Shown one piece after another: positions 1 to 47,222 of a DNA stretch of 64,000 nucleotides. How positions within the stretch are numbered: the stretch's first letter is position 1; every line of letters starts with the position of its first letter. The stretch is from Trypanosoma brucei (lineage: Eukaryota). Made by a program: the position numbers and the translations under genes. The notes below the pieces were generated by a model that saw only the letters and a program-made list of their open reading frames with translations, made no database searches and had not been told where the DNA came from. The DNA lies in assembly GCA_000002445.1 (NCBI GenBank), contig CP000071.1, positions 1,952,001 to 2,016,000 of the forward strand, written 5' to 3'.

Positions 1-355
1 TTGGTGCAATGTCGGTGTTGGGTGAACGGAACAACGTCCTGAGGCGTTGACCGTGTCGGATCATATCGCTTACTGTTGAAGTGTGCCCTGCAGAGCTCAT
101 AGATCTGGAGCACCTTTCCGAATCCTCCCTGAGGTGGGACAACACCTCAGCTTGAGAATCAGGAACATATCGTGGTTTCGGTGAAGTCTCCGCAAGCTTA
201 GAGGCGCCGTGTTTACGGAGCCTCGCGATGAGATGCACTTTGGTTCCACTACCCAAGAGGCCTTTGGACAAACATCGATCGCGCAGCTCCCTCCAACTGA
301 GTTTTTCCTCCGGTAGTGGCTCACCACTTTGACAACCGGTGGTTGAAGAATGCAT
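1..355 (-). CDS. N-terminal part (>=118 aa) of a SAP-domain protein; start codon at 353-355, gene runs off the left edge
   Basis: By-hand translation of the minus strand in the frame of the ATG at 353-355 (plus-strand 'cat') is open through position 2 with no stop; an in-frame stop lies just upstream at 383-385. Residues ...EEKLSWRELRDRCLSKGLLGSGTKVHLIARLRKHGAS match the SAP motif (L..L.V.ELR..L..RGL...G.K..LI.RL). The ORF track misses it because it is open to the edge; the listed ORF 97..327 is in a different frame. Confidence 0.45.
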   Translation of the reverse strand, partial: MHSSTTGCQSGEPLPEEKLSWRELRDRCLSKGLLGSGTKVHLIARLRKHGASKLAETSPKPRYVPDSQAEVLSHLREDSERCSRSMSSAGHTSTVSDMIRHGQRLRTLFRSPNTDIAP

Positions 356-1554
356 TAAACTCGTACCCGCTTCCCCACGAGAGTTATGGAGCTGGTCAAA
401 GTGCCAGTCAGAATTGCCACTCCACACTGCCGGCTGGCCAGAGAGTAAAGGGGGACCACCTTCTGTGCGCTGCATTTTAAAACAGCGGAATGGCGAGAAG
501 GGGAAGCTAACGGACCTCCTCAGCGCAGCAACAGAAACCTCGCCGTCTCGTGCAAGCATTTCATCATTCGTAGAGTTGTCATCGCCCAAAACTTCTCGAC
601 CGTGGCGGGGGGCCAACATTGCGCAGAACGCTTCCGTCGCACGAACGGCCTCTGGACAACTGCCATGAAGCTGCGTCCCAGCGGCGCCACTGCTAATTGG
701 CAGTGGATATCGCCTCAACGCGGCGCAAAATTCTGGAAAGCGCTGAGGCCATCTACGCTCAATATACGAGGCAATTCTTTCGTTATGGCTGTTCGGCATT
801 AACACATCAAAGAGCAAGTTTGCATGCAAAAGACCTTCCCGTCCACCTTATACAAAAATGGATGTTCCCGCTTTTGACTGGCCTTTGAACGACGGTCAAC
901 GCTGGCGCCTTCCATTAGCCCGCAGAAGCGGGAAACGTTTGTGAGAATAAGAAGCAAAAAGGAATGGGATCAGTGCAATGTACAAGAGCAACAAAACGCA
1001 TGTTGGGCGGGTGAGTGAATGGACAACACAAACACGAAGAATCACCATTCACTTTTCACACACTCAGGCACACCAACGGAACAGACGTGATAGTAGATTG
1101 CTATTCGTTAGACAAAATAGGGACAGAAGAAAGGCAAAGGGGGACAAGATACGATCTCAGTGCTCTGGAAACTTGCTGATTCTCTTTTTTCTTTTCGGAC
1201 ATTTCTTTCTTTTTTTGTGCATATACCTCTCTCCACAACCAATCTTTACTGACCCATTCCCATTCGCTCCCACTTCCTTTTCTCACGTCTTCTACATTGT
1301 CCTTGGCTCCTTCACCTTCCCTCCCCTGGCTTCTGTCCCCCCCCCTACGCGTTAGGTGTGCTTAACAAGGGCTAAGTTAAAATAAAATAATGGTGATAAC
1401 AAGAAATACAAATAAACAAATAAATATATACGCTAAACGCACTTTGCCTATTTTATTACTTTTTTATTAAAAAAAAAAAAATAACTCCGTTAATTTACTT
1501 TTTGTATCCCTTTTCTTAGTTAAACACCTTAGGCTCCACCGAAAAAGAGTGAAC

Positions 1555-2067
1555 TCACACGCGTTCGCCCTTGAGACCATCCTTCCAGAAGTAGAAGGTG
1601 GGTGTCTCACCATCCCACTTGCAGAGGACAATCATGCCATTGTCGGGGTCCTCCTCATTACCCTCAGGAATGAAAAACTGATACTCATCAATTTCCTTTA
1701 TCACCTTCTTCACGAAGGCGGCGGCGTTAGTCTGGAAGGCCTTCTTTGCGCCCTCATCCTCAATTTTCTCCAATAGCTGCTTCATGTAACCACGAATGTG
1801 GGCCATGTAGGAGCCCTTGTCATAGTTCGTCTCAGTGTAGCGGTTATTGTGAACCACATCAATGACGCGCTGCTTCCCGTCGTCCACGTCACCCGCCGCA
1901 CCCTCGCCGGCATCCTCATCAGCATTAGCAGAAATACCGTAGTCCTCACCACCAATCTCAATGTAGCGGCCTTGTACGGCGTACACGATCTCGTCCAACA
2001 AATCCATTGGCTTGTCGTTGTCGCACACGACTTCGGCATTTGTTAAGATATCCCTGAAGATCTTCAT
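1555..2067 (-). CDS. TCTP: Translationally controlled tumour protein (TCTP), paralog A (170 aa)
   Basis: 170-aa ORF with the TCTP signature (MKIFRDILTNAEV..., IGGEDYGISANADED..., FYFWKDGL). It is the leftmost of two tandem copies and is probably TCTP1 (Tb927.8.6750) if the window runs in chromosome orientation; that assignment is from memory. Confidence 0.93.
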   Translation of the reverse strand: MKIFRDILTNAEVVCDNDKPMDLLDEIVYAVQGRYIEIGGEDYGISANADEDAGEGAAGDVDDGKQRVIDVVHNNRYTETNYDKGSYMAHIRGYMKQLLEKIEDEGAKKAFQTNAAAFVKKVIKEIDEYQFFIPEGNEEDPDNGMIVLCKWDGETPTFYFWKDGLKGERV

Positions 2068-2203
2068 TCTGGCGAAATTGCTTTATTGTCTATAAGCGTT
2101 GGTAAGCTCCTACATACAACGGGGCAAAACAAAAAGGGATAAGAAGATATCAAAGGAAATAAAGAAGCTAGCATAAAGAAACGTGTTAGAAGTGATTTCG
2201 TAG
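2068..2203 (-). promoter_or_regulatory. Shared 5'UTR and polypyrimidine tract with trans-splice acceptor region upstream of TCTP (the same sequence at 3678..3813 serves paralog B)
   Basis: The plus strand is purine-rich (acggggcaaaacaaaaagggataagaagatatcaaaggaaataaagaagctagcataaagaaacg), so it is pyrimidine-rich on the coding (minus) strand immediately upstream of the ATG. It is conserved between the two copies. Confidence 0.6.
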
Positions 2204-3158
2204 TTTTCCAATGGAAAGTTCTCCCTGAAGACACCCGTCCACATCTTTTTTCTTTCCTGCTTTGAATGCACCGTCTCCCATTATATTCTATCTTTATTTC
2301 CTTCATTTTTTAAAAAAACCACACGGTTACTTCTTTTCTGTGTCTTTCCCCCTTTATTTTTTCTCGCTCTATCTCCCTCCTTTTAAATATTCTTTTTTGT
2401 TTTATGGACTGTTTCTCTCCGGTGCACCTGGTGGGAGAACAGTGCGTCACTTTGAACTCCTCACGCGATCACCTCTTCCACAGCCGTATCCATTAACCTT
2501 CACACTACGAAAGTTAATTTCCTGTAACTCCATCTATTAAGTCAGTTTCCGCGATGTTCATATTAAGTTCCCCTTATTTGACAGCGTTTCTTTTTTTTTT
2601 ACTTTTCTTCTTCTGCTCTTAGTTTCAGCAGTAATTAAACATTTTACCTGCTGCCAGCGAATTCACGAATAAAGGAATCACCGAAGAAGGGTGCACAAAC
2701 CTCTCAACTCACACGTGGATGAGCCTCATCTTTTATTTGTTCCAGGTATCTTATTCACCGTCATTGCTCGCCTCCACGTGCACACGCACGCATTCCTTGA
2801 CAGATTCCTTTCTTCTTTTTCAAGCACTGGTATAGAGGCTGAGCCAAACAGACACAGACAGAGAGGAAAGAAACCCAGCATTCTCGCCTATATTAATCCA
2901 TCTTCAGCTTTTCCTCATTCTCCCTTACTTATTATCTTCATCCGCTTCTCTTCTCCCCCACTCTTACAAGCAGAGCGGACCGTGCGCGTTGCGGAAACAC
3001 AAGTGATCGGTAAAATAAAAAAAGTGAAAACAATCCCTCTGAAGTACAAGGAATCTTCAAAACAACAAGCAGGATGAATGGTGAAAACAAAGTGGGCGAG
3101 GACGAGAGAATTAAAGATGACAGTCGCCATAAAGCAACATTAGATTCACTTAGCAACA

Positions 3159-3813
3159 GCGAACTCACACGCGTTCGCCCTTGAGACCATCCTTCCAGAA
3201 GTAGAAGGTGGGTGTCTCACCATCCCACTTGCAGAGGACAATCATGCCATTGTCGGGGTCCTCCTCATTACCCTCAGGAATGAAAAACTGATACTCATCA
3301 ATTTCCTTTATCACCTTCTTCACGAAGGCGGCGGCGTTAGTCTGGAAGGCCTTCTTTGCGCCCTCATCCTCAATTTTCTCCAATAGCTGCTTCATGTAAC
3401 CACGAATGTGGGCCATGTAGGAGTTCTTGTCATAGTTCGTCTCAGTGTAGCGGTTATTGTGAACCACATCAATGACGCGCTGTTTTTCGTCAGCCACGTC
3501 ACCCGCCGCACCCTCAGCGGCATCCTCATCAGCATTAGCAGAAATACCGTAGTCCTCACCACCAATCTCAATGTAGCGGCCTTGTACGGCGTACACGATC
3601 TCGTCCAACACATCCATTGGCTTGTCGTTGTCGCACACGACTTCGGCATTTGTTAAGATATCCCTGAAGATCTTCATTCTGGCGAAATTGCTTTATTGTC
3701 TATAAGCGTTGGTAAGCTCCTACATACAACGGGGCAAAACAAAAAGGGATAAGAAGATATCAAATAAAATAAAGAAGCTAGCATAAAGAAACGTGTTAGA
3801 AGTGATTTCGTAG
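3159..3813. repeat. 655-bp tandem-duplication core, copy 2
   Basis: See copy 1. The 5' flank is identical except 2 substitutions (caaaggaaat vs caaataaaat). The flanking 3' regions are unrelated. Confidence 0.9.
3165..3677 (-). CDS. TCTP: Translationally controlled tumour protein (TCTP), paralog B (170 aa)
   Basis: Second 170-aa TCTP ORF, 1610 bp to the right of paralog A. It differs at 10 nt giving 5 residues (L23V, G54A, D62A, G64E, G85N). It is probably TCTP2. Confidence 0.93.
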   Translation of the reverse strand: MKIFRDILTNAEVVCDNDKPMDVLDEIVYAVQGRYIEIGGEDYGISANADEDAAEGAAGDVADEKQRVIDVVHNNRYTETNYDKNSYMAHIRGYMKQLLEKIEDEGAKKAFQTNAAAFVKKVIKEIDEYQFFIPEGNEEDPDNGMIVLCKWDGETPTFYFWKDGLKGERV

Positions 3814-4198: not shown

Positions 4199-5458
4199 TT
4201 AGCAAAACACTCGCTGCACATCGTCTGTAATAATGTAGACGAGTGGCTCCCCCTTGCTTCCACATGCACCTAATACATGCGGCGAGTTTGGATGGAATGA
4301 CAGTGACATCACGGCACCCGTACGGTATGAGCGCTTTACAATCTCCTTAGGCGGACACGTGGTGTCGCGTGCGTCCCACAAGCTAATCATATTGTCCTTC
4401 CCTCCTGCGGCAAGGAGACCCGGGACATGCGGAGAGGCGGAAAACGTCGTATCCGCCTCATGGACTTGCATCTGCCATAAGGCCTCCGCGTTCATACGCG
4501 CCTCAAACGCTGCCCAGTTGCCTGTGCTCGTTGATGCGTATAACACTCGGCCCCCGCTATGGGGGTCAAACTCCACGTGCTCAACCGTGCTACCGGTAGC
4601 AAAGCGAAGGGCTGCGCTACTGGGGCTGCGACAGTCGCGCAGCACCATCGTTGCATCGAAGCCACCAGAAAGCAAAAGATTGGCTTCGCTACGATGCCAA
4701 TCAAGACTCTGGACTTTCTCTGGTTCAGTATACGTCCCGATACAGCTGGAAGTGTTGAGGTCCCACATCTTAATAGTCGTGTCAGCACTACCTGAAGCGA
4801 GTATATGCTGCGCGCACGTGTTCCACCTCACACAAATAACTGAATCCTTATGTGATCCCTCCTGCAGCAGGCTGCTCTTCACCCTCTTCCTGTAGTTGTC
4901 TTCCCACTTGACGCACCCACCCAACAGACACGCCGGCTCCACAGCATCCATCACATCAAGGTTCCACAATTCAACAAATGGACGCATCGTTCCCACGGCA
5001 CAAATTGACATTGTTCCGTCCGTCAACCACGCGGTGCTAAGAGGGAAAGCGGCGACCTCCATGTCGTGGTGTACGTAAATGTTGTTTTCGGGCTCGTCAT
5101 AGACATACAACTCTAAGCGCGGTTGCGCGGCGTCAGCGAGTGCGGTAGCAAAGACGAGGTCCGTCTCTTTGAAGTTCGTGTCGTTAATCTCATCTTCGTC
5201 ATCGGACTCCACCTGCTCCAAAATAGTGTCGGCCCCGCCACCGAAGCACATCCCACCCGTGTCGCCAGCGTCATCGCTACTCGCATCGCCACTGTCTGCT
5301 AAGTTCGTGCCTTCATGAGGAATCGTCTCGTCTTCTTCAACGCCGAGTTCCGGGTTTCGCCTCCGCAACTTTGCTCGAACCGTATCAATATCATCACCCG
5401 TACGGATTGGGATGGGCTTCATGCCACCCTTTGGTACCCACGAAAGGGACGTAAGCAT
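4199..5458 (-). CDS. PWP1: Periodic tryptophan protein 1 (PWP1) homolog, WD40 repeat protein (419 aa)
   Basis: Block-by-block similarity to yeast/human PWP1: N-terminal SLSWVPKG (cf. ATNWVPRG), acidic tract, LELYVYDE, IYVHHDM..AAFPL, VGTM.PFVELWNLDVMD, SGSADTTIKMWDL, and WD repeats (GGFDATMVLRD, GGKDNMISLWD). Confidence 0.82.
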   Translation of the reverse strand: MLTSLSWVPKGGMKPIPIRTGDDIDTVRAKLRRRNPELGVEEDETIPHEGTNLADSGDASSDDAGDTGGMCFGGGADTILEQVESDDEDEINDTNFKETDLVFATALADAAQPRLELYVYDEPENNIYVHHDMEVAAFPLSTAWLTDGTMSICAVGTMRPFVELWNLDVMDAVEPACLLGGCVKWEDNYRKRVKSSLLQEGSHKDSVICVRWNTCAQHILASGSADTTIKMWDLNTSSCIGTYTEPEKVQSLDWHRSEANLLLSGGFDATMVLRDCRSPSSAALRFATGSTVEHVEFDPHSGGRVLYASTSTGNWAAFEARMNAEALWQMQVHEADTTFSASPHVPGLLAAGGKDNMISLWDARDTTCPPKEIVKRSYRTGAVMSLSFHPNSPHVLGACGSKGEPLVYIITDDVQRVFC

Positions 5459-12867: not shown

Positions 12868-14418
12868 TCAATCAGATATCTCCTCTGCCATCCGCAGTCG
12901 CGAATGTGACTTTTGTAAGCGACTCATGAACTTCTTCTTAAAAACTATATCGTTGGGATGCAGTAGCAACGCATCCACAGCCTCCCTATTCTGCAGCAAG
13001 TAACGCATCTCCTCCACACCGCCCGCCCATTCGCCATGTACAAAGAATACCGGAAACACAGCGTGCTCCTCATGCCGGCGGAATACGGCCTTGCGTAGAA
13101 GCCTCTGCCATGAATGAAAATCGTCCAACGGTAATTTGAGAGGAGGTCGTGAACCATCCTTTGCACTGCATTCGCCCGTGTCGGTCACGGCATCACTGCG
13201 ATCTGCGCAAGAGCAAGAAGAGTGACCCTCATTACTAGAGTTATCACACCCTGCCGCCCTACCCTGTAGAACCGCAAGACCGCTCTCCACCTCACCATTT
13301 TGCACGGCAGTGCACATCATACTTGTGAGGTCGTCGACTGACAACACATAAGGCACGATTCGTCGATGAGCAAACGCCTTTAACCACTTTCTCTCTATGA
13401 AAGCACGCTGCCGCTCTACGTCCTCCTCGCACCGAAACTGTCCAGGGGGGCCACGCCCATATATATCGCACTCGGCTTCATTCCCATTGTTACTCCTACT
13501 GCCACCTCTTTCATAACTCCCCTGACTCAAGTTGTAATTCCTACCGTAAATCACGACCGCGAGGTGTGGCTTCAAAATGCATTCCCGGAACCAACGTTGC
13601 ACACACTCTACAGCCACGAGCTCACGCTCAGCCGCAACGAAGTCAACGTCAGGCACCGCTTCCGACGCCTGTGTAATCTGGAAACGAAGAAGCGTCTCAC
13701 TCTGTCGCTCATTAACCGAACGAACGAAGCGTGCAATCCGGTGCTGCAGCTCACCTCTCACCTCATTCTCTCCCCTTTCCTCAACCTTTCCACATAGCTC
13801 ATCACCCACACGGTACTGCCCAGAGGCTGCAGTACCCGAAGTGGTGAGAGATTTAATGTCCACGCACACACCGCACACTTTTTGAACACGGTTGAACCGC
13901 GACACGTCGAACCGACCGCTCCACGCGACCGATAGGCGGACGGCAGCGACGGGGACCTGCAATCCCTGCGCAACCACGCCACGGTACTGATCCCTAAGCC
14001 GGTAGTCGTAATGAGAAAATCCAACAAGAAGGTCCGGGTTGACACTACCATCACATGGGAGTGGTGGCAATGGCGAGTCGAAGACAGCTTTTATGCGCTG
14101 CAGACGCTGATCATACAAAATATCGAGTGGGGTACGACCAGTGGTAGGGTCTACCTCCTCGTAGCACCAACCTTCACCCGAAGGCGCAGCCGCGGTCGCG
14201 GACGCCACATCACCACTGCTGCTGGTGCCACTAACCCCACTATCTCTGATGTCCCCATCAGCACTCGTCACACCACCTTTGCCCACACCACTTCCATCGA
14301 AGGAAATCCCACATTGAGACAGTTTCAACGGTAGGGAAGACCGCAGCTTCGACATTCCATGTGTGAACCGTGATGTCGGTAGTGTGACGGTGCGCGCAAG
14401 GAATAGTCGCCACGACAT
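12868..14418 (-). CDS. Hypothetical protein (516 aa after start correction) with a C-terminal glutaredoxin-like motif
   Basis: The ORF-track call (to 14625) reads through the (CA)40 microsatellite as a CVCVCV... run. The first Met after the repeat is MSWRLFLAR at 14416-14418 (plus-strand 'cat'). The C-terminus HAVFPVFFVHGEWAGGVEEMRYLL resembles the glutaredoxin fold motif (P.hFh.G..hGG). Confidence 0.55.
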   Translation of the reverse strand: MSWRLFLARTVTLPTSRFTHGMSKLRSSLPLKLSQCGISFDGSGVGKGGVTSADGDIRDSGVSGTSSSGDVASATAAAPSGEGWCYEEVDPTTGRTPLDILYDQRLQRIKAVFDSPLPPLPCDGSVNPDLLVGFSHYDYRLRDQYRGVVAQGLQVPVAAVRLSVAWSGRFDVSRFNRVQKVCGVCVDIKSLTTSGTAASGQYRVGDELCGKVEERGENEVRGELQHRIARFVRSVNERQSETLLRFQITQASEAVPDVDFVAAERELVAVECVQRWFRECILKPHLAVVIYGRNYNLSQGSYERGGSRSNNGNEAECDIYGRGPPGQFRCEEDVERQRAFIERKWLKAFAHRRIVPYVLSVDDLTSMMCTAVQNGEVESGLAVLQGRAAGCDNSSNEGHSSCSCADRSDAVTDTGECSAKDGSRPPLKLPLDDFHSWQRLLRKAVFRRHEEHAVFPVFFVHGEWAGGVEEMRYLLQNREAVDALLLHPNDIVFKKKFMSRLQKSHSRLRMAEEISD

Positions 14419-14446
14419 CTGATTGTCCTTTTGCTTCCCTTTGTAG

Positions 14447-14447
<1 letters not shown>

Positions 14448-14527
<80 letters not shown>
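14448..14527. repeat. (CA)40 / (GT)40 perfect dinucleotide microsatellite
   Basis: 80 nt of uninterrupted 'ca' repeats directly visible in the sequence, about 30 nt upstream of the corrected start of the 516-aa gene. Confidence 0.97.
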
Positions 14528-14528
<1 letters not shown>

Positions 14529-15087
14529 GCAAACAAACAAGAGGAACGGACGCAGGAAGGGTAGCAAGCCTGTATACAAAGAAGGTCACAAATAAAATAA
14601 GACGAAAGCATCCGGACGAGCACATAAACGAGGAGGGAAGGTCGGTCTAGGTGAAAAGTAATGATGAATGATATTTGATGGCTCCACAGCCCTACAATTA
14701 TTCAATACTGATAACGGCACCAACAAAAAAAAAATTGACCGCCTCTGTTAGCCGTCATCATACATACACCGTGTGTAGCAGAACGATAGACATTCCGCGC
14801 TATCATGACAAATACATCTCCCTTGCTCGGACACACGCCACAACAAAGAAATAGTGAAGGAATCAAATCAGTGCACCGACCCACATATTTGCAAGAAGGG
14901 TAAAGAAACAACGATGGAATGCCGACACCACAACAAATATACCCAAAACCTGCGGACAAATGAGAACGTCACGCCCATGCACATTCAACAACACATACAC
15001 AACCTATATGTGCCGAAGTGCTACCGCCAGCTGGGGCGGTGCAACCAACGACACGATTAACAAAAAGAGAAACGGGAACCATCAAAT

Positions 15088-42775: not shown

Positions 42776-45700
42776 ATTTCAATATCGACGGAAGCTAGTT
42801 GATGCGGTGGAAAGTGATAGGGTTAGCAATATCAGACGGAATTTGGCTCTCGAATAAGACACTGAAAGTAAGAAGACTAGGTGCGTCACTAGAAAAGAAT
42901 ACGGCATACGTCATGCCCACATAAACACAAAGGCAAACCGGGAACATATTGTATGCCCCTTCATACCATCCAAGGATATAACAGTAGGGTTAAAGCACCA
43001 TGTGATCAGTATGACTGGGTTCAAAAAAAAATACTTACATCACGTATTAATAGTCTTCCAGGATGCAAAACATAACAGACTGACTATGGTGAGATTTGCC
43101 CCCACAGATGCCATGAGACTTCTGACCGTCGCTACCGCTGGATGTAGGAACGGCGATTTAGTGATATGCATCGAAGTGAGCAGACTGGATGCTGCAACAT
43201 TTTCAAACGGCATCCGATTCCCAGAAAATGTCTCTGAAAGTTCCAACTCAAGTAAAGGTGGAAAACACGCTAATGCCAGTGAGCAGTAGCTGATGCAACC
43301 CACGTAACGGTCAGAAGTGTATCAGAAATGATTCACGATGTTTTCTATATCACAGGTGGAGAGTGATTGTAAAAAAGAGGCTCAGATATTCCCTCTGGCC
43401 GAGACTGCAGAATCTAGGTGGGAAGCGCCGCATCGTAAAACAAAAATAACGCCTTCGGAGTCCACCATGTCGCGCAGAGAGTTTTCGGTGATATATTAGT
43501 TAGTGCCACGAAAAAAGAACGCAGTAAAAAAAAACCACATGGTACAAAAAGGTTGAATCACCTAACAAAGGAAAAGGGGAAAAAGAGCGTCCAACAACAA
43601 CCATTACACAAAGAAAAAAGTAAAAGAAATGTAACGACACACCACCAAAGTGTGTAGCAATCCTTTGCGGCCGCATACCTCCGACAAAGCGTACCACATA
43701 AATGCACTTCTTGAAGATATGCAAGTTTGCACAAACCCACTTGCCCGAATGTATGCATTTTCCTAGACCGCACCCTGTCCCCTCTTTTTTTCCTTTTTAC
43801 AGGTGGCTGAGATGCTATGAAAACATGGAGACCCTCCCCATCTCACAAACACACCCCCTCGCGAGAACACAAACAACGCTCTCGTTATAAACGGCCTGTT
43901 CCACGGCAAAGCGTGGCGTTAGGAAAGCTCTTACATATTCCTCATTACGACTAGGCGCGTCGAACGAAGAGGAAGGGGTACACGGGAGAGCACTTCCACA
44001 TCCTACCTCTTTCAAGCTTGTGCAGAAAGCGGATCGGGTCCCCCGTGGGAAAGCAACCATCTTCATGCAGCACTTTTAGGGTAGGACACCGCAGTCCGTG
44101 TGGGGAAGTTCCCTTGAGGCATACCTCCAGAGTATTAAGCTGAGTAGCTACATTGTGTCCGTGTTTGTACCTGACGAAAACAACTCGTTCGACGCCTTTC
44201 GTTGGGAAGTCTGGGCACCGGAGGAGTTTTGGAGCCAGATTTGGCACCAGGGCGGTTCCGTCACCCACATCTCCTCTTGCTGTGTCTCCCGCCGGGTGCT
44301 CATGCCTAGCGACTCTGGCCACCCCTGACATGGACATATTGCTTACCCCACCAACCGCACCTGTGGCACCTTCCACTCCGACTTTCGATTAATGCTTTCT
44401 TTTTTTGCGTGTGTGTAGCAGTTCCCGACCCCTTGCTGAGGAAGAAGGATGTTGATGTTTTCGCTATCTTCCTGTTCGCCCCCATCCCTGCACTCCTTGC
44501 CATCTTGACCTTCATTTACTAGGCTAGCCCTCTCATTGCCTCACATATTCCGCCCCCTAATTCCGGCGTCAGTATTCCCCCGATCAACGGGGGTGTTGCC
44601 TCTTCATATATTTGGGCACGTAACCCCAGTGACAGTGCCTTGGACATGTAGGATGTCTCGGTTGTTCGACCACCATATGAACATGCCACCACTACTCCGT
44701 GGTGACTCCCGCATACAAAACCTGTGATCTGCCAACTGAACATTCCACCCGAACGTTTCGAGCGTACTCAGCGTCCAAACATTTCTCCGACTGCTTGTGT
44801 GTCGCTCCCTGTGGAGCGATACCCGTCCTTTCCGCTCTTGCGCAGTTGGGCCTGCGCCTGCCACCCTTCGACTGGCGGAAAGCTGTTCACCAAAAGCGCT
44901 GGATTCGCCACCGGTCATGGGTTTTGCATAGGAATCGCGCGATTTCACGCGCTTTGTTTTTTCGCAGACACCTGGGAGATGCTGTCCCTCCACCTGTTGA
45001 AAGTTTTCAAACACGGATATTGGCATCCGTCTGACGGGGTCATCCTCCATATATTTCCTCTGGAGTGCCCCTGGAACGTACCCCCCGGATCTCGCACTTC
45101 TCTGCTCCAGGTTGGAAATGCCACTCTCTTCTTCCTGGGAATAGGTTCCGTTTGAGCACGGTAGATTGCGGATGGCATTATCTCACTCGTGGTGCGCACA
45201 CCTTACAACTACTAGGGAGGCCGTTCCGTCATCTTGGATGCACGCTATCTCCTGGGATGTGGCCGATCTGATTTCTCAAAAGAAGAAAAAGAAAAACATC
45301 TTCGGTTGGTGGCTCGCGGTACTGATTCCGCTGGTAGCCTACCAGCGGCATCAGAGGTTACACAGCCGTAATCACTGCCAGAGTTGTTTTTGGTTAACCC
45401 GTTCTGCCGATGCACCGTATCCTTGGAAAGCGATAACTGGGCAGGCATCTGCTTCGCGGTTCTTTTTCTCCCATGTGGCCATATCCCTTTGGCTATTTTC
45501 ATTCGCGCGGTGGAGCCACAAACCAAAACTATTCCCCCGCCCGTTAACCCTCTGAGGCAAAGGGGAGCCACAAAAGTTGTTGGTGGTTCACGCTTACTAC
45601 CGCAACCGGTGGTGTTTCCACCACAGCCCAGCGGTTGCCGCTCAGTTGCGGCCACACTGGAACCCTCTTGAAAGCAGGCTGCTGTGACAGTAAGCGGGTT

Positions 45701-47222
45701 GGCAACAGCTACGCTGGGGCAAGGGTTATTGTTGAAGCATCCAAGCTAGGTGGGTCCCCTACATCTTTTGAGTGACGGTGGCTGAGAATGGATATCCCAC
45801 CTTGATTTGTCAGCAGCTCACACCAGCAAACTTCTAAAGTGCTGTTATTATCGTCATGCCGCGATGGTTCAGAGAAGAGAATGGTGTTGGCTGCTCGCCA
45901 TTTTCTTTTTTTTTTTTGGGGGGGGGTCTGGGTGGGGCACAGGCGTGTACGCCTCCCTCTCGAGAGTCAACGCCCAGTCGTTTATAAGACCGTGACGTGG
46001 CCAGAGTGGCCCATGGTAGGTATAATAGATTTCCCTCTGAACATTATGTTATAAAGCGGGGAAATTTGTGCTAACACTCAATTTTACGTTTGCCATACAC
46101 TGCCTTTTTGGCACTGTTAAACTGTCACTTGCTCAGGAATGCCAGTGCTGGTGGTTTGGATTCTCGTACACAGTGTTTACCCGGATGTTTACAGCGTTTC
46201 CGGCAGCGTTGGTTGACCGTTTACTGTAATCTCGAATGACTTCTGATCTTGGGTTGCAGGTGTTTGCTTACCCAACGTGGCTGTGACGGAGGTCCCAGTG
46301 ATGTGTTTTCTCCCCCGTCACTTGTAAACGCTGGAGGCTACTTAATATCTGTTGATAGGTTTTTAAAGTGGGGAAGGAAAAGTATCACCTCTGCAAGGAA
46401 ATTAACAACATCCCGCTTATCTCGTCTCGCAATGCGTCACTAGCGGGATGCTTCCCCCTTCGCACTGAAGTAGGAAACTCTGCCATTTTTAAAAAAAACC
46501 TGGCAAAAAGTAGATGCACAGTGACCTCTTGTAAAGCGGCGTTGTTAACTTAATCCGTGCGTTTTTGTTTAGTCGCTTTCAAGCGACATTTCTGTGTATA
46601 TCTAGGCATGTGTGAGGATCCTCTCCATATCCTCGCCGGTCTGATGTTTGCTTTGTTGCGCACCTGAGCGTTAACCGGGCATCCACGGGGTTATGTTGAA
46701 CACCTAACTGTGTGATTCTGACAGGTGAAATACTGTTTATCCTTGCCGAGTGATTTATGTTGATTAATGGCTGAGTGACAAACGTCCCTGATTATGCTAA
46801 CAGCACCGTCAGACAACTGACACTCGCTTGATGGTTCACATAGTGTCGTCACACTCTCTACATTCCATAGCCGGCGCTGTACTTAGATTTGTTTGTTTTG
46901 CAGTCTTACTTTCACAAGGAGTAACGACCTTACTTGAAGTATATATGTGTGTGCTGTGCTTGATTGACGGAGTTTCCCAAGGGAGCTGTTTCTCACCTCT
47001 TCCTTTGTGGTGCCGTATTTACGGTGGCAAGTGCGACCAGTCACGCTTCGTATTGGTGGTGGTGGTTCTTTGTCGGCCACTTTAACCGCCGCTTTTGGGC
47101 ACTAATAAATTTATCGGTACCATTTTATAAGGTGTGTATATTTTTTTGCCCGCAGTTGGCACGTATAAAACAGCTTCCGGCTCCTTTCCTTTTCTATTTG
47201 CTCATCATTACGTAGAGTTTCG
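42776..47222. promoter_or_regulatory. Divergent strand-switch region; candidate RNA polymerase II transcription start region for both polycistronic arrays
   Basis: 4.4 kb with no ORF over 150 aa. Every gene to the left is minus-strand and every gene to the right is plus-strand. Plus-strand intergenic composition flips from purine-rich (left array) to pyrimidine-rich (right array). Contains the T12-G9 run and GT-rich stretches. Confidence 0.6.
45906..45937. repeat. T12 homopolymer followed by a G9 run and GGG-T-GGGG (G-quadruplex-capable)
   Basis: 'ttttttttttttgggggggggtctgggtgggg' is visible directly. Runs of G are the one sequence feature repeatedly noted at trypanosome divergent strand-switch regions. 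Confidence 0.85.

What the first reader, a model, noticed from the sequence alone, without database searches (positions are those of the whole stretch)
1549..3813. Tandem TCTP paralogs: 655-bp conserved core with unrelated 3'UTRs and only non-silent differences
Seen directly: two TCTP genes sit 1610 bp apart. Identity covers only the CDS plus 136 nt upstream (655 bp, 12 mismatches). It begins about 6 nt past the stop codon and stops abruptly. The roughly 950-bp 3' flanks are unrelated in sequence: copy A's is U-rich in mRNA sense right after the stop, copy B's is not. All 10 CDS differences fall in five codons that each change an amino acid (L23V, G54A, D62A, G64E, G85N); no silent-only substitution exists across 513 nt. 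That pattern suggests ongoing gene conversion over the core, with five maintained protein differences and independent 3'UTR-based regulation. This matches what is published for T. brucei TCTP1/TCTP2 (stage-specific expression via distinct 3'UTRs), so it is described, but the exact block boundaries and absence of silent changes are worth a look.
Basis: partly seen in the sequence, partly recalled or inferred. Interest (0 to 1): 0.5.

Follow-up and report, generated by a model that had tools for sequence, protein, structure and literature searches.

The report
Known trypanosome TCTP1/TCTP2 gene pair
These are the two published TCTP genes of Trypanosoma brucei, kept almost identical by copying between the copies but given different tails that switch them on in different life stages; the claim that they have no silent differences is wrong.

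Summary
The repeat is real. Two 170-aa TCTP genes lie on the minus strand, 1555-2067 and 3165-3677, 1610 bp apart. They sit in a roughly 653-bp near-identical block (1551-2203 and 3161-3813) with unrelated flanks.

The proteins are identical to T. brucei TREU927 TCTP1 and TCTP2 (Tb927.8.6750/6760). Jojic et al. 2018 already describe the identical 5'UTRs, the ten ORF changes, the five residue changes and the stage-specific 3'UTRs.

- The ten differences fall in six codons, not five.
- K65 (AAG/AAA) is purely silent, and three more changes are silent third positions.
- Nei-Gojobori gives 6 replacement and 4 silent changes, dN/dS about 0.36.

Gene conversion is supported:
- Paralog dS is 0-0.05 in six genomes, against more than 1.2 between species, in the same tandem syntenic position in four of them.
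- T. b. gambiense and an equiperdum-type genome show mosaic sites: the codon-54 doublet is swapped, and -105, -89/-88 and the 5' block edge differ.

Only codons 62, 64/65 and 85 differ consistently. They lie in or next to the flexible loop, at variable columns, so selection on the protein differences is unproven.

Verdict: already known, low interest.

The parts
1555..2067 (-). TCTP1 coding sequence (170 aa; L23 G54 D62 G64 G85). This is the downstream copy in the direction of transcription.
   Evidence: ORF. Pfam TCTP PF00838 scores 159 bits against a cut-off of 24.3. Protein identical to P0047 = XP_847505, T. b. brucei TREU927. AlphaFold model pLDDT 84.6, and the best Foldseek PDB hits are TCTPs with TM 0.72-0.78.
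3165..3677 (-). TCTP2 coding sequence (170 aa; V23 A54 A62 E64 N85). This is the upstream copy.
   Evidence: ORF. Pfam TCTP scores 158 bits. Protein identical to P0045 = XP_847506.
1551..2203 (-). Homogenised block, copy A. It holds 4 nt past the stop, the CDS and 136 nt upstream. It has 12 mismatches to copy B.
   Evidence: Position-by-position comparison at offset 1610 and blastn of the two copies.
3161..3813 (-). Homogenised block, copy B.
   Evidence: In T. b. gambiense and the equiperdum-type genome this copy's similarity to TCTP1 runs 20 nt further upstream, to -156.
2068..2203 (-). Shared upstream 136 nt of TCTP1. It contains a polypyrimidine tract (about 2117-2183, 75-85% pyrimidine in mRNA sense), candidate splice-acceptor AGs at -44, -41 and -24 (2111/2110, 2108/2107, 2091/2090), and a short 5'UTR. 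The only two mismatches are the doublet at 2155-2156 (-88/-89), inside the pyrimidine tract.
   Evidence: Sequence read directly. A transcript contig (L013) carries TCTP sequence from -21 only, which points to the AG at -24/-23 as the acceptor. This is inferred, not mapped.
3678..3813 (-). The same 136-nt trans-splicing signal plus 5'UTR upstream of TCTP2.
800..1554 (-). TCTP1 3' flank (3'UTR plus intergenic spacer down to the ERCC4-domain gene). It is A+U-rich near the stop codon.
   Evidence: Composition and motifs. Unrelated to the TCTP2 flank. The ERCC4 gene's ATG is at 799.
1476..1483 (-). UAUUUUUU (UA(U)6) motif, 72 nt after the TCTP1 stop codon. This is the RBP10 recognition motif.
   Evidence: Motif scan; there is none in the 961-nt TCTP2 flank. 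Clayton 2019 (PMC6597758) states that TCTP1 mRNA carries an RBP10 motif.
2204..3164 (-). TCTP2 3' flank (3'UTR plus spacer). The first 160 nt (3005-3164) are pyrimidine-rich.
   Evidence: Jojic et al. [quoted passage not shown]
1873..1907 (-). Cluster of 7 of the 10 CDS differences (codons 54, 62, 64, 65), encoding part of the flexible loop. The counterpart in copy B is 3483-3517.
   Evidence: Clustering P about 5.5e-5. The loop at residues 39-65 has no secondary structure and pLDDT below 50 for residues 45-62.
4199..5458 (-). Upstream neighbour, a WD40-repeat protein (419 aa). Used as a synteny anchor.
   Evidence: Pfam. The same neighbour is seen in T. theileri, L. major, Angomonas and T. 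b. gambiense.
1..799 (-). Downstream neighbour, the 5' part of a SAP/ERCC4-domain (MUS81-like) gene that runs off the window. Used as a synteny anchor.
   Evidence: Its N-terminus matches the T. b. gambiense ERCC4 gene product, with the ATG at 799.

Best explanation
This is the chromosome-8 TCTP1/TCTP2 locus of Trypanosoma brucei, a tandem duplication that is probably old.

The two genes lie in one polycistronic unit on the minus strand, TCTP2 first and TCTP1 second. They share a roughly 650-bp block made of the trans-splicing signal, the 5'UTR and the CDS. Recurrent short-tract gene conversion (interparalog recombination) keeps that block almost identical.

The sequence after the stop codon is not exchanged. 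It has become two unrelated 3'UTRs:
- The TCTP1 3'UTR carries a UA(U)6 RBP10 motif and gives procyclic-form expression.
- The TCTP2 3'UTR, in particular its first 160 nt, gives bloodstream-form expression.

The remaining paralog differences concentrate in a short stretch (codons 54-85) that encodes the flexible loop and the start of helix 2. That stretch has escaped homogenisation longer than the rest of the block.

Basis of each step:
- Shown here: gene identity, block edges, silent-site identity, cross-species concerted pattern, strain mosaics.
- Taken from the literature: stage-specific expression through the 3'UTRs.
- Inferred: that conversion, and not repeated duplication, is the homogenising process; and why the tract stops at the stop codon (loss of homology, reinforced by selection on the 3'UTR elements).
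For: Identity:
- The proteins equal XP_847505 and XP_847506.
- Pfam TCTP scores 159 and 158 bits, and the model has the TCTP fold.
- Jojic 2018 describes the same five residue changes, ten ORF changes, identical 5'UTRs and distinct 3'UTRs.

Concerted evolution:
- Paralog dS is 0.041 (T. b. brucei), 0.041 (T. b. gambiense), 0.030 (T. theileri), 0.020 (T. cruzi), 0 (L. major) and 0.048 (Angomonas). Between species dS is 1.2-2.7.
- The order WD40, TCTP, TCTP, ERCC4 is conserved in T. brucei, T. theileri and L. major. Angomonas keeps WD40 followed by the tandem pair, but no ERCC4 gene was called downstream.
- In every species where the two copies are tandem, similarity is confined to a block around the CDS, and the edges differ between species: -136..+4 (with scattered matches to about +10), -156..+11, -101..+125, -167..+261, -8..+1.
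- A simple recent tandem duplication would give a full 1610-bp repeat unit. Only 653 bp are alike.

Direct exchange within T. brucei:
- The GC/CT doublet of codon 54 lies in opposite paralogs in T. b. gambiense.
- At -105 the states are G/G, A/A or G/A depending on the genome.
- The -89/-88 doublet is erased in the equiperdum-type genome.
- The 5' block edge differs by 20 nt.
- The mosaic TCTP1 allele is present in independent RNA-seq reads. CT at 161-162 and AC at 185-186 are spanned by single 31-mers.

3'UTR elements: UA(U)6 lies at +72 of TCTP1 only, consistent with PMC6597758.
Against: - No DNA of T. congolense or T. vivax could be fetched. It is therefore not shown that each 3'UTR type has an ortholog in another species, which would date the duplication directly. 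Flanks of T. theileri and T. cruzi do not align with T. brucei flanks.
- T. cruzi has a different layout. Its copies are 14 kb apart inside a larger segmental duplication and share their 3' flank. Not every lineage need descend from one tandem pair.
- The mosaic sites rest on one assembly per subspecies. The equiperdum-type assembly has at least one indel error in TCTP1, and near-identical paralogs can be cross-polished.
- The swap at codon 54 is reciprocal in appearance, which simple one-way conversion does not produce in one step.
Confidence: 0.85

Rival explanations
1. Gene conversion homogenises the core, while five amino-acid differences are actively maintained by selection, giving stage-adapted protein isoforms. 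On this view no neutral difference survives.
For: - Codons 62, 64/65 and 85 are paralog-specific in all three Trypanozoon genomes.
- Each of these codons carries two or more differences, and every silent difference lies within 4 nt of a replacement difference (P about 6e-5).
- Silent divergence is 0.19 in codons 54-85 and 0 elsewhere (p = 0.0015). This is the 'island of divergence' pattern expected if conversion tracts crossing selected sites are removed.
Against: - Four of the ten differences are silent, one of them in a codon of its own; dN/dS is 0.36 and not significantly different from 1.
- L23 is a derived change absent from T. b. gambiense, and the codon-54 state is swapped between paralogs there.
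- All five positions are among the most variable columns of kinetoplastid TCTP (mean entropy 1.67 vs 0.96, P = 0.015). Three lie in the disordered loop.
- The paralogs encode identical proteins in L. major, Angomonas and T. congolense, and in T. theileri they differ at other positions. No isoform difference is conserved.
- The three genomes are about 99% identical, so shared differences may only reflect shared ancestry.
- A non-coding doublet (-89/-88) shows the same adjacency without any codon to select on.
Confidence: 0.2
2. A recent duplication with no gene conversion. The 653-bp block was copied recently into a nearby site, and the few differences are simply what has accumulated since.
For: Low paralog divergence (dS 0.04) and sharp block edges are what a young insertion would show.
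Against: - The same tandem pair, each with its own private flanks, occurs between the same neighbour genes in T. theileri and L. major and after the same WD40 gene in Angomonas. That would require at least four independent, equally recent, equally placed duplications.
- Sites that conflict with the paralog split among T. brucei subspecies need exchange after the duplication.
- Silent divergence is strongly uneven along the gene.
Confidence: 0.04
3. An ancient duplication in which the similarity is held by purifying selection on the protein alone, with no exchange.
For: TCTP is highly conserved, with dN 0.09-0.17 across trypanosomatids.
Against: - Silent sites are saturated between species (dS above 1.2) but nearly identical between paralogs (dS 0.05 or less).
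- 136 nt of non-coding upstream sequence are 98.5% identical.
- Protein-level selection cannot preserve silent sites or the exact upstream sequence.
Confidence: 0.01

Closest known systems
T. brucei TCTP1 (Tb927.8.6750) / TCTP2 (Tb927.8.6760), Jojic et al. 2018, J Cell Sci 131:jcs206417 (PMC5992589)
   Same: This is the same locus. The proteins are identical, in tandem, with the same five residue changes, ten ORF changes, identical 5'UTRs and unrelated 3'UTRs. The paper shows those 3'UTRs to be sufficient for procyclic-specific (TCTP1) and bloodstream-specific (TCTP2) expression.
   Different: Nothing differs in the object itself. The paper does not mention gene conversion, silent versus replacement changes, or T. 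b. gambiense (0 text hits). It reads the high paralog similarity as pointing to a duplication just before the Trypanosomatida diverged.
Concerted evolution and sequence mosaics in T. brucei tandem gene arrays (Jackson 2007, PMC1855330; Jackson et al. 2010, PMC2854126)
   Same: Tandem duplicates are homogenised by gene conversion. Mosaics specific to a subspecies occur between T. b. brucei and T. b. gambiense. Copies with remodelled UTRs behave differently from the rest of an array.
   Different: Those surveys covered arrays of more than three copies and do not mention TCTP. Here a two-copy array keeps converting across the CDS even though both flanks are entirely unrelated.
RBP10-controlled procyclic-specific mRNAs with UA(U)6 in the 3'UTR (Mugo & Clayton 2017, as reviewed in Clayton 2019, PMC6597758)
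   Same: The TCTP1 3' flank has a UA(U)6 motif 72 nt after the stop codon, and the TCTP2 flank has none. The review names TCTP1 as carrying an RBP10 motif.
   Different: Binding and its effect were not tested here. The element in the first 160 nt of the TCTP2 3'UTR that overrides it has not been identified.
TCTP paralog pairs of other trypanosomatids (L. major, Angomonas deanei, T. theileri)
   Same: They are tandem pairs with a homogenised CDS-centred block and private flanks. In L. major and T. theileri the pair has the same neighbours on both sides. In Angomonas only the upstream WD40 neighbour is shared.
   Different: The block edges differ, from -8..+1 in Angomonas to -167..+261 in L. major. 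In L. major and Angomonas the two proteins are identical, so there are no isoform differences.

Membership tests
TCTP / fortilin / HRF protein family (Pfam PF00838) | Full-length match to the TCTP profile above the curated threshold | tested here: met
   159 and 158 bits against a cut-off of 24.3, covering residues 1-166 of 170. PDB TCTP sequences match at E = 1e-23 to 1e-13.
TCTP / fortilin / HRF protein family (Pfam PF00838) | TCTP fold: a beta core, a helical hairpin and a long flexible loop | tested here: met
   AlphaFold model with pLDDT 84.6, helices at 84-101 and 105-124, and a disordered loop at 39-65. The top 22 Foldseek PDB hits are all TCTPs, and the top 19 have TM 0.72-0.78.
T. brucei TCTP1/TCTP2 locus (Tb927.8.6750/6760) | Protein sequences identical to the TREU927 entries, with the five published residue differences | tested here: met
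   Copy A = P0047 (XP_847505) and copy B = P0045 (XP_847506). L23V, G54A, D62A, G64E and G85N are as in PMC5992589.
T. brucei TCTP1/TCTP2 locus (Tb927.8.6750/6760) | Tandem arrangement, identical 5'UTRs, unrelated 3'UTRs | tested here: met
   Offset 1610. The upstream 136 nt are identical apart from a doublet in the pyrimidine tract. The 3' flanks are unalignable. The window is 99.0% identical over 8 kb to T. b. gambiense chromosome 8.
T. brucei TCTP1/TCTP2 locus (Tb927.8.6750/6760) | Stage-specific expression driven by the 3'UTRs | not testable with these tools
   Taken from northern blots and CAT reporter experiments in PMC5992589.
Concerted evolution of tandem duplicates by gene conversion | Paralogs within a genome are closer at silent sites than orthologs between species | tested here: met
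   Paralog dS is 0-0.05 in six genomes, against more than 1.2 between species.
Concerted evolution of tandem duplicates by gene conversion | The duplication predates the species compared (same tandem pair in the same syntenic position) | tested here: inconclusive
   The order WD40, TCTP, TCTP, ERCC4 is seen in T. brucei, T. theileri and L. major, and Angomonas has WD40 followed by the tandem pair. T. cruzi has a different, larger segmental duplication. Orthology of each 3'UTR type across species could not be shown, and no T. congolense or T. vivax DNA was available.
Concerted evolution of tandem duplicates by gene conversion | Mosaic sites among close relatives that conflict with the paralog split | tested here: met
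   Codon 54 doublet, -105, -89/-88 and the -137..-156 edge. The mosaic allele was confirmed in independent reads. Caveat: there is only one assembly per subspecies.
Concerted evolution of tandem duplicates by gene conversion | Formal recombination test on a population sample (GENECONV, PHI or similar) | not tested
   Only three genomes with six sequences and few informative sites were available.
RBP10-regulated procyclic-specific mRNAs | UA(U)6 motif in the 3'UTR | tested here: met
   Motif at 1476-1483, 72 nt after the TCTP1 stop codon; none in the 961 nt after TCTP2. Whether it lies upstream of the poly(A) site is assumed, not mapped.
RBP10-regulated procyclic-specific mRNAs | RBP10 binding, and dependence of mRNA level on RBP10 | not testable with these tools
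   Stated only in the review PMC6597758.

The most novel reading that the evidence does not exclude
Codons 62, 64/65 and 85, and perhaps 54, form a small island of divergence. On this reading, selection for stage-specific TCTP isoforms (changes in the flexible loop and at the start of helix 2) removes every conversion tract that crosses it, while the rest of the block is homogenised. The silent changes next to these codons would be hitchhikers shielded from conversion. This would be a compact natural example of selection opposing gene conversion at single-codon resolution.
Probability: 0.2. Interest if true: 0.45.

Novelty: already known. Interest (0 to 1): 0.2.

Why it matters
The locus is a textbook-style case of how trypanosomes, which lack gene-specific promoters, obtain stage-specific expression. 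They duplicate a gene, keep the coding part identical and let the 3'UTRs diverge. That is published.

This check adds the following:
- A correction: there are silent differences, dN/dS is unremarkable, and only three of the five protein differences hold across subspecies.
- Explicit evidence that the coding block is homogenised by exchange between the copies.
- The conserved upstream 136 nt are the trans-splicing signal plus a short 5'UTR.
- The block edges move between subspecies and between species.

None of this changes how the system is understood.

Tried and rejected
- Exact look-ups of the window's TCTP1 and of T. congolense TCTP found no contig. The closest outgroup could therefore not be compared at the DNA level.
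- Sensitive blastn of T. brucei 3' and 5' flanks against T. theileri and T. cruzi flanks gave only short low-complexity hits. Orthology of the 3'UTR types across species remains untested.
- A Logan contig (L013) appeared to place a TCTP gene next to a chromosome-10 TPR gene. I considered a third genomic copy or an engineered line and rejected both. Sister contigs carry the spliced-leader 3' end at the same point, so the runs are RNA-seq and the contig is a chimera of two mRNA 5' ends.
- I considered whether the adjacent doublets are single multi-nucleotide mutations. Outgroup codons show that some could instead be one change on each paralog: GAT at codon 62 and GGT or GGC at codon 54 in other trypanosomes, and Ser85 in T. 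congolense. The question is left open.
- tRNA, tandem-repeat and whole-window repeat scans found nothing bearing on the finding.
Full report
**What is there**

The window carries two 513-nt ORFs on the minus strand, at 1555-2067 and 3165-3677, exactly 1610 bp apart. Both are full-length TCTP proteins. Pfam PF00838 scores 159 and 158 bits against a cut-off of 24.3. PDB TCTP sequences match at E down to 1e-23. An AlphaFold model (pLDDT 84.6) finds only TCTP structures as significant Foldseek hits, the best 19 at TM 0.72-0.78.

A position-by-position comparison at offset 1610 shows near-identity from 1551 to 2203 (3161 to 3813), with 12 mismatches. Identity drops to background on both sides within a few bases. 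This pair is the only repeat of 80 nt or more in the whole 64-kb window.

The 961 nt after the upstream copy and the 1000 nt after the downstream copy do not align. The best local hit is 38 nt at 76%.

**Identity**

The two proteins are identical to XP_847505 (Tb927.8.6750, TCTP1; copy A) and XP_847506 (Tb927.8.6760, TCTP2; copy B) of T. b. brucei TREU927. The window is 99.0% identical over 8 kb to T. b. gambiense chromosome 8.

Jojic et al. 2018 (PMC5992589) describe this pair:
- The genes are in tandem, with identical 5'UTRs.
- The 3'UTRs differ drastically. They are sufficient for procyclic-specific (TCTP1) and bloodstream-specific (TCTP2) expression.
- The first 160 nt of the TCTP2 3'UTR can override the TCTP1 3'UTR.

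The ten CDS differences are at nt 67, 161, 162, 185, 186, 191, 192, 195, 253 and 254. They fall in six codons:

| Codon | TCTP1 | TCTP2 | Effect |
|---|---|---|---|
| 23 | TTG | GTG | L to V |
| 54 | GGC | GCT | G to A, plus a silent third position |
| 62 | GAC | GCT | D to A, plus a silent third position |
| 64 | GGG | GAA | G to E, plus a silent third position |
| 65 | AAG | AAA | silent only (Lys) |
| 85 | GGC | AAC | G to N |

Nei-Gojobori counting gives 4 silent and 6 replacement differences on 101 and 409 sites. That is dS 0.041, dN 0.015 and dN/dS 0.36, not significantly different from 1 (Fisher p = 0.12).

The remark that only copy A's 3' flank is U-rich is also wrong. U is 41% vs 45% in the first 160 nt. 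Copy A is A+U-rich (74%) with a U13 run, and copy B is pyrimidine-rich.

**What survives of the claim**

The differences are strikingly clustered:
- Four adjacent doublets occur among the ten differences (P about 5e-6).
- Seven of the ten lie within 35 nt (P about 5.5e-5).
- All four silent differences lie within 4 nt of a replacement difference (post hoc P about 6e-5).
- Silent divergence is 0.19 in codons 54-85 and zero in the other 80 silent sites (p = 0.0015).

**Anatomy of the block**

Read in mRNA sense, the shared 136 nt upstream are not just 5'UTR. They hold a polypyrimidine tract at about -116 to -50 (75-85% pyrimidine), then AG dinucleotides at -44, -41 and -24. The only two upstream mismatches (-89/-88) lie inside the tract, which fits the published 'identical 5'UTRs'.

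An RNA-seq contig (L013) carries TCTP sequence from -21 to stop+4 only. That is the part common to both mRNAs, and it points to the AG at -24/-23 as the spliced-leader acceptor. This is an inference, not a mapping.

The block is therefore the trans-splicing signal, a short 5'UTR, the CDS and 4 nt.

Downstream of TCTP1 a UA(U)6 motif lies 72 nt after the stop codon (1476-1483). There is none in the 961 nt after TCTP2. Clayton's 2019 review states that TCTP1 mRNA carries an RBP10 motif.

**Is it gene conversion?**

Three lines of evidence say yes.

First, the silent-site comparison. Paralog dS within a genome is:

| Genome | Paralog dS |
|---|---|
| T. b. brucei | 0.041 |
| T. b. gambiense | 0.041 |
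| T. theileri | 0.030 |
| T. cruzi | 0.020 |
| L. major | 0 |
| Angomonas deanei | 0.048 |

Between T. brucei and any of the other species, dS is 1.2-2.7. Purifying selection on the protein cannot explain identical silent sites and an identical upstream sequence.

Second, synteny and block structure. The same tandem pair lies between the same WD40 and SAP/ERCC4 genes in T. brucei, T. theileri and L. major. In Angomonas it follows the same WD40 gene, but no ERCC4 gene was called downstream. In each of these species similarity is confined to a block centred on the CDS, with private flanks. The block edges differ between species:

| Genome | Block, relative to the ATG and to the end of the stop codon |
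|---|---|
| Window (T. b. brucei) | -136 to +4 (scattered matches to about +10) |
| T. b. gambiense | -156 to +11 |
| T. theileri | -101 to about +125 |
| L. major | -167 to +261 (100% identical) |
| Angomonas | -8 to +1 |

A simple recent tandem duplication would leave a full 1610-bp repeat unit, not a 653-bp one.

Third, exchange within the T. brucei complex. I compared the window with T. b. gambiense DAL972 (L012) and an equiperdum-type assembly (L015). Several sites conflict with the split into paralogs:
- The GC/CT doublet of codon 54 sits in TCTP1 rather than TCTP2 in T. b. gambiense.
- Position -105 is G/G, A/A or G/A depending on the genome.
- The -89/-88 doublet is erased in L015.
- The 20 nt from -137 to -156 upstream of TCTP2 resemble TCTP1 in two genomes but not in the window.

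The mosaic TCTP1 allele is also present in independent RNA-seq reads. CT at 161-162 and AC at 185-186 lie 26 nt apart, inside single 31-mers of the assembly.

Jackson 2007 and Jackson et al. 2010 described concerted evolution and subspecies mosaics for larger T. brucei arrays but do not mention TCTP. Jojic et al. do not mention conversion.

**Are the protein differences maintained by selection?**

This is not shown. The evidence against it:
- V23 is the ancestral state. L23 is a derived change in TCTP1 that is absent from T. b. gambiense.
- Codon 54 is swapped between the paralogs in T. b. gambiense.
- Only codons 62, 64/65 and 85, plus the base at stop+5, are paralog-specific in all three genomes. 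Those genomes are about 99% identical, so this may be shared ancestry.
- Residues 54, 62 and 64 lie in the disordered loop (residues 39-65; pLDDT below 50 for 45-62). Residue 23 is in a short strand, and residue 85 is in the first turn of helix 84-101.
- All five positions are among the most variable columns in 40 kinetoplastid TCTPs (mean entropy 1.67 vs 0.96, P = 0.015). G/A at 54 and D/A at 62 are the two commonest states there.
- The paralogs encode identical proteins in L. major, Angomonas and T. congolense. In T. theileri they differ at other positions.

The evidence for it is the multi-hit codons and the local excess of silent change. This is the pattern expected if tracts crossing these codons are removed by selection. 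It is equally expected if a cluster of mismatches (seven in 35 nt) simply blocks heteroduplex formation. I give the selection reading about 0.2.

**Caveats**

- No T. congolense or T. vivax DNA was reachable.
- Flanks do not align beyond the T. brucei complex, so the age of the two 3'UTR types is not dated.
- T. cruzi has a different layout. Its copies are 14 kb apart in a larger segmental duplication and share their 3' flank.
- The mosaics rest on one assembly per subspecies. L015 has at least one indel error in TCTP1.

**Verdict**

The object is the published TCTP1/TCTP2 pair. Gene conversion over the core is well supported, and it is an expected instance of a known process. The 'only non-silent differences' claim is refuted.

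Noticed in passing
L013 = L019 (Logan ERR7929162 contig); compare L020:300-503 and L018:3830-4003: The contig joins the reverse complement of TCTP mRNA (from -21 to stop+4) to the 5' end of a chromosome-10 TPR-gene mRNA. Sister contigs from the same run series carry the spliced-leader 3' end (...TTTCTGTACTATATTG) at that junction. The runs are therefore RNA-seq and the contig is a chimera of two mRNA 5' ends. The TCTP part stops exactly where the two paralog mRNAs stop being identical.
   Followed up: yes
window 1814-1815, 1876-1877, 1882-1883, 1906-1907, 2155-2156 (and +1610): Ten of the 13 paralog differences (the 12 in the block plus the mismatch at 1550) form five adjacent doublets, one of them non-coding. 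P is about 5e-6 for the four CDS doublets. They may be multi-nucleotide mutations, or one change on each paralog at a long-unconverted spot. Outgroup codons allow the second reading for codons 54, 62 and 85. Unresolved.
   Followed up: partly
L002 and L003 (T. cruzi CM026604.1), L004 and L005: In T. cruzi the two TCTP genes are about 14 kb apart inside a larger segmental duplication (TCTP, then an ERCC4 gene, then a 486-aa gene). They share the whole 3' flank (99.8%) and 177 nt upstream. There are no distinct 3'UTRs as in T. brucei.
   Followed up: partly
L007:5150-5647 (T. rangeli): A gene model annotated as a 166-aa TCTP lies directly upstream of the intact TCTP gene. It aligns to the intact copy out of register (99% over 382 nt, with gaps). 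It looks like a truncated or frameshifted copy, or an assembly problem.
   Followed up: no
L015:4611-5122 (GCA_003543875.1): The TCTP1 ortholog has a 1-nt deletion at CDS nt 288, and no gene was called there. Its ten diagnostic sites are TCTP1-type. This is probably a long-read assembly error, and it is a warning about the other variants in this assembly.
   Followed up: partly
window 14448-14527: A perfect (CA)40 microsatellite lies inside the 5' end of a mechanical minus-strand ORF (12868-14625). The real start codon of that gene is probably downstream of the repeat.
   Followed up: no
window about 42800-47200: All long ORFs up to 42775 are on the minus strand, and all from 47223 onward are on the plus strand. 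This is a divergent strand-switch region, a likely start of two polycistronic units.
   Followed up: no
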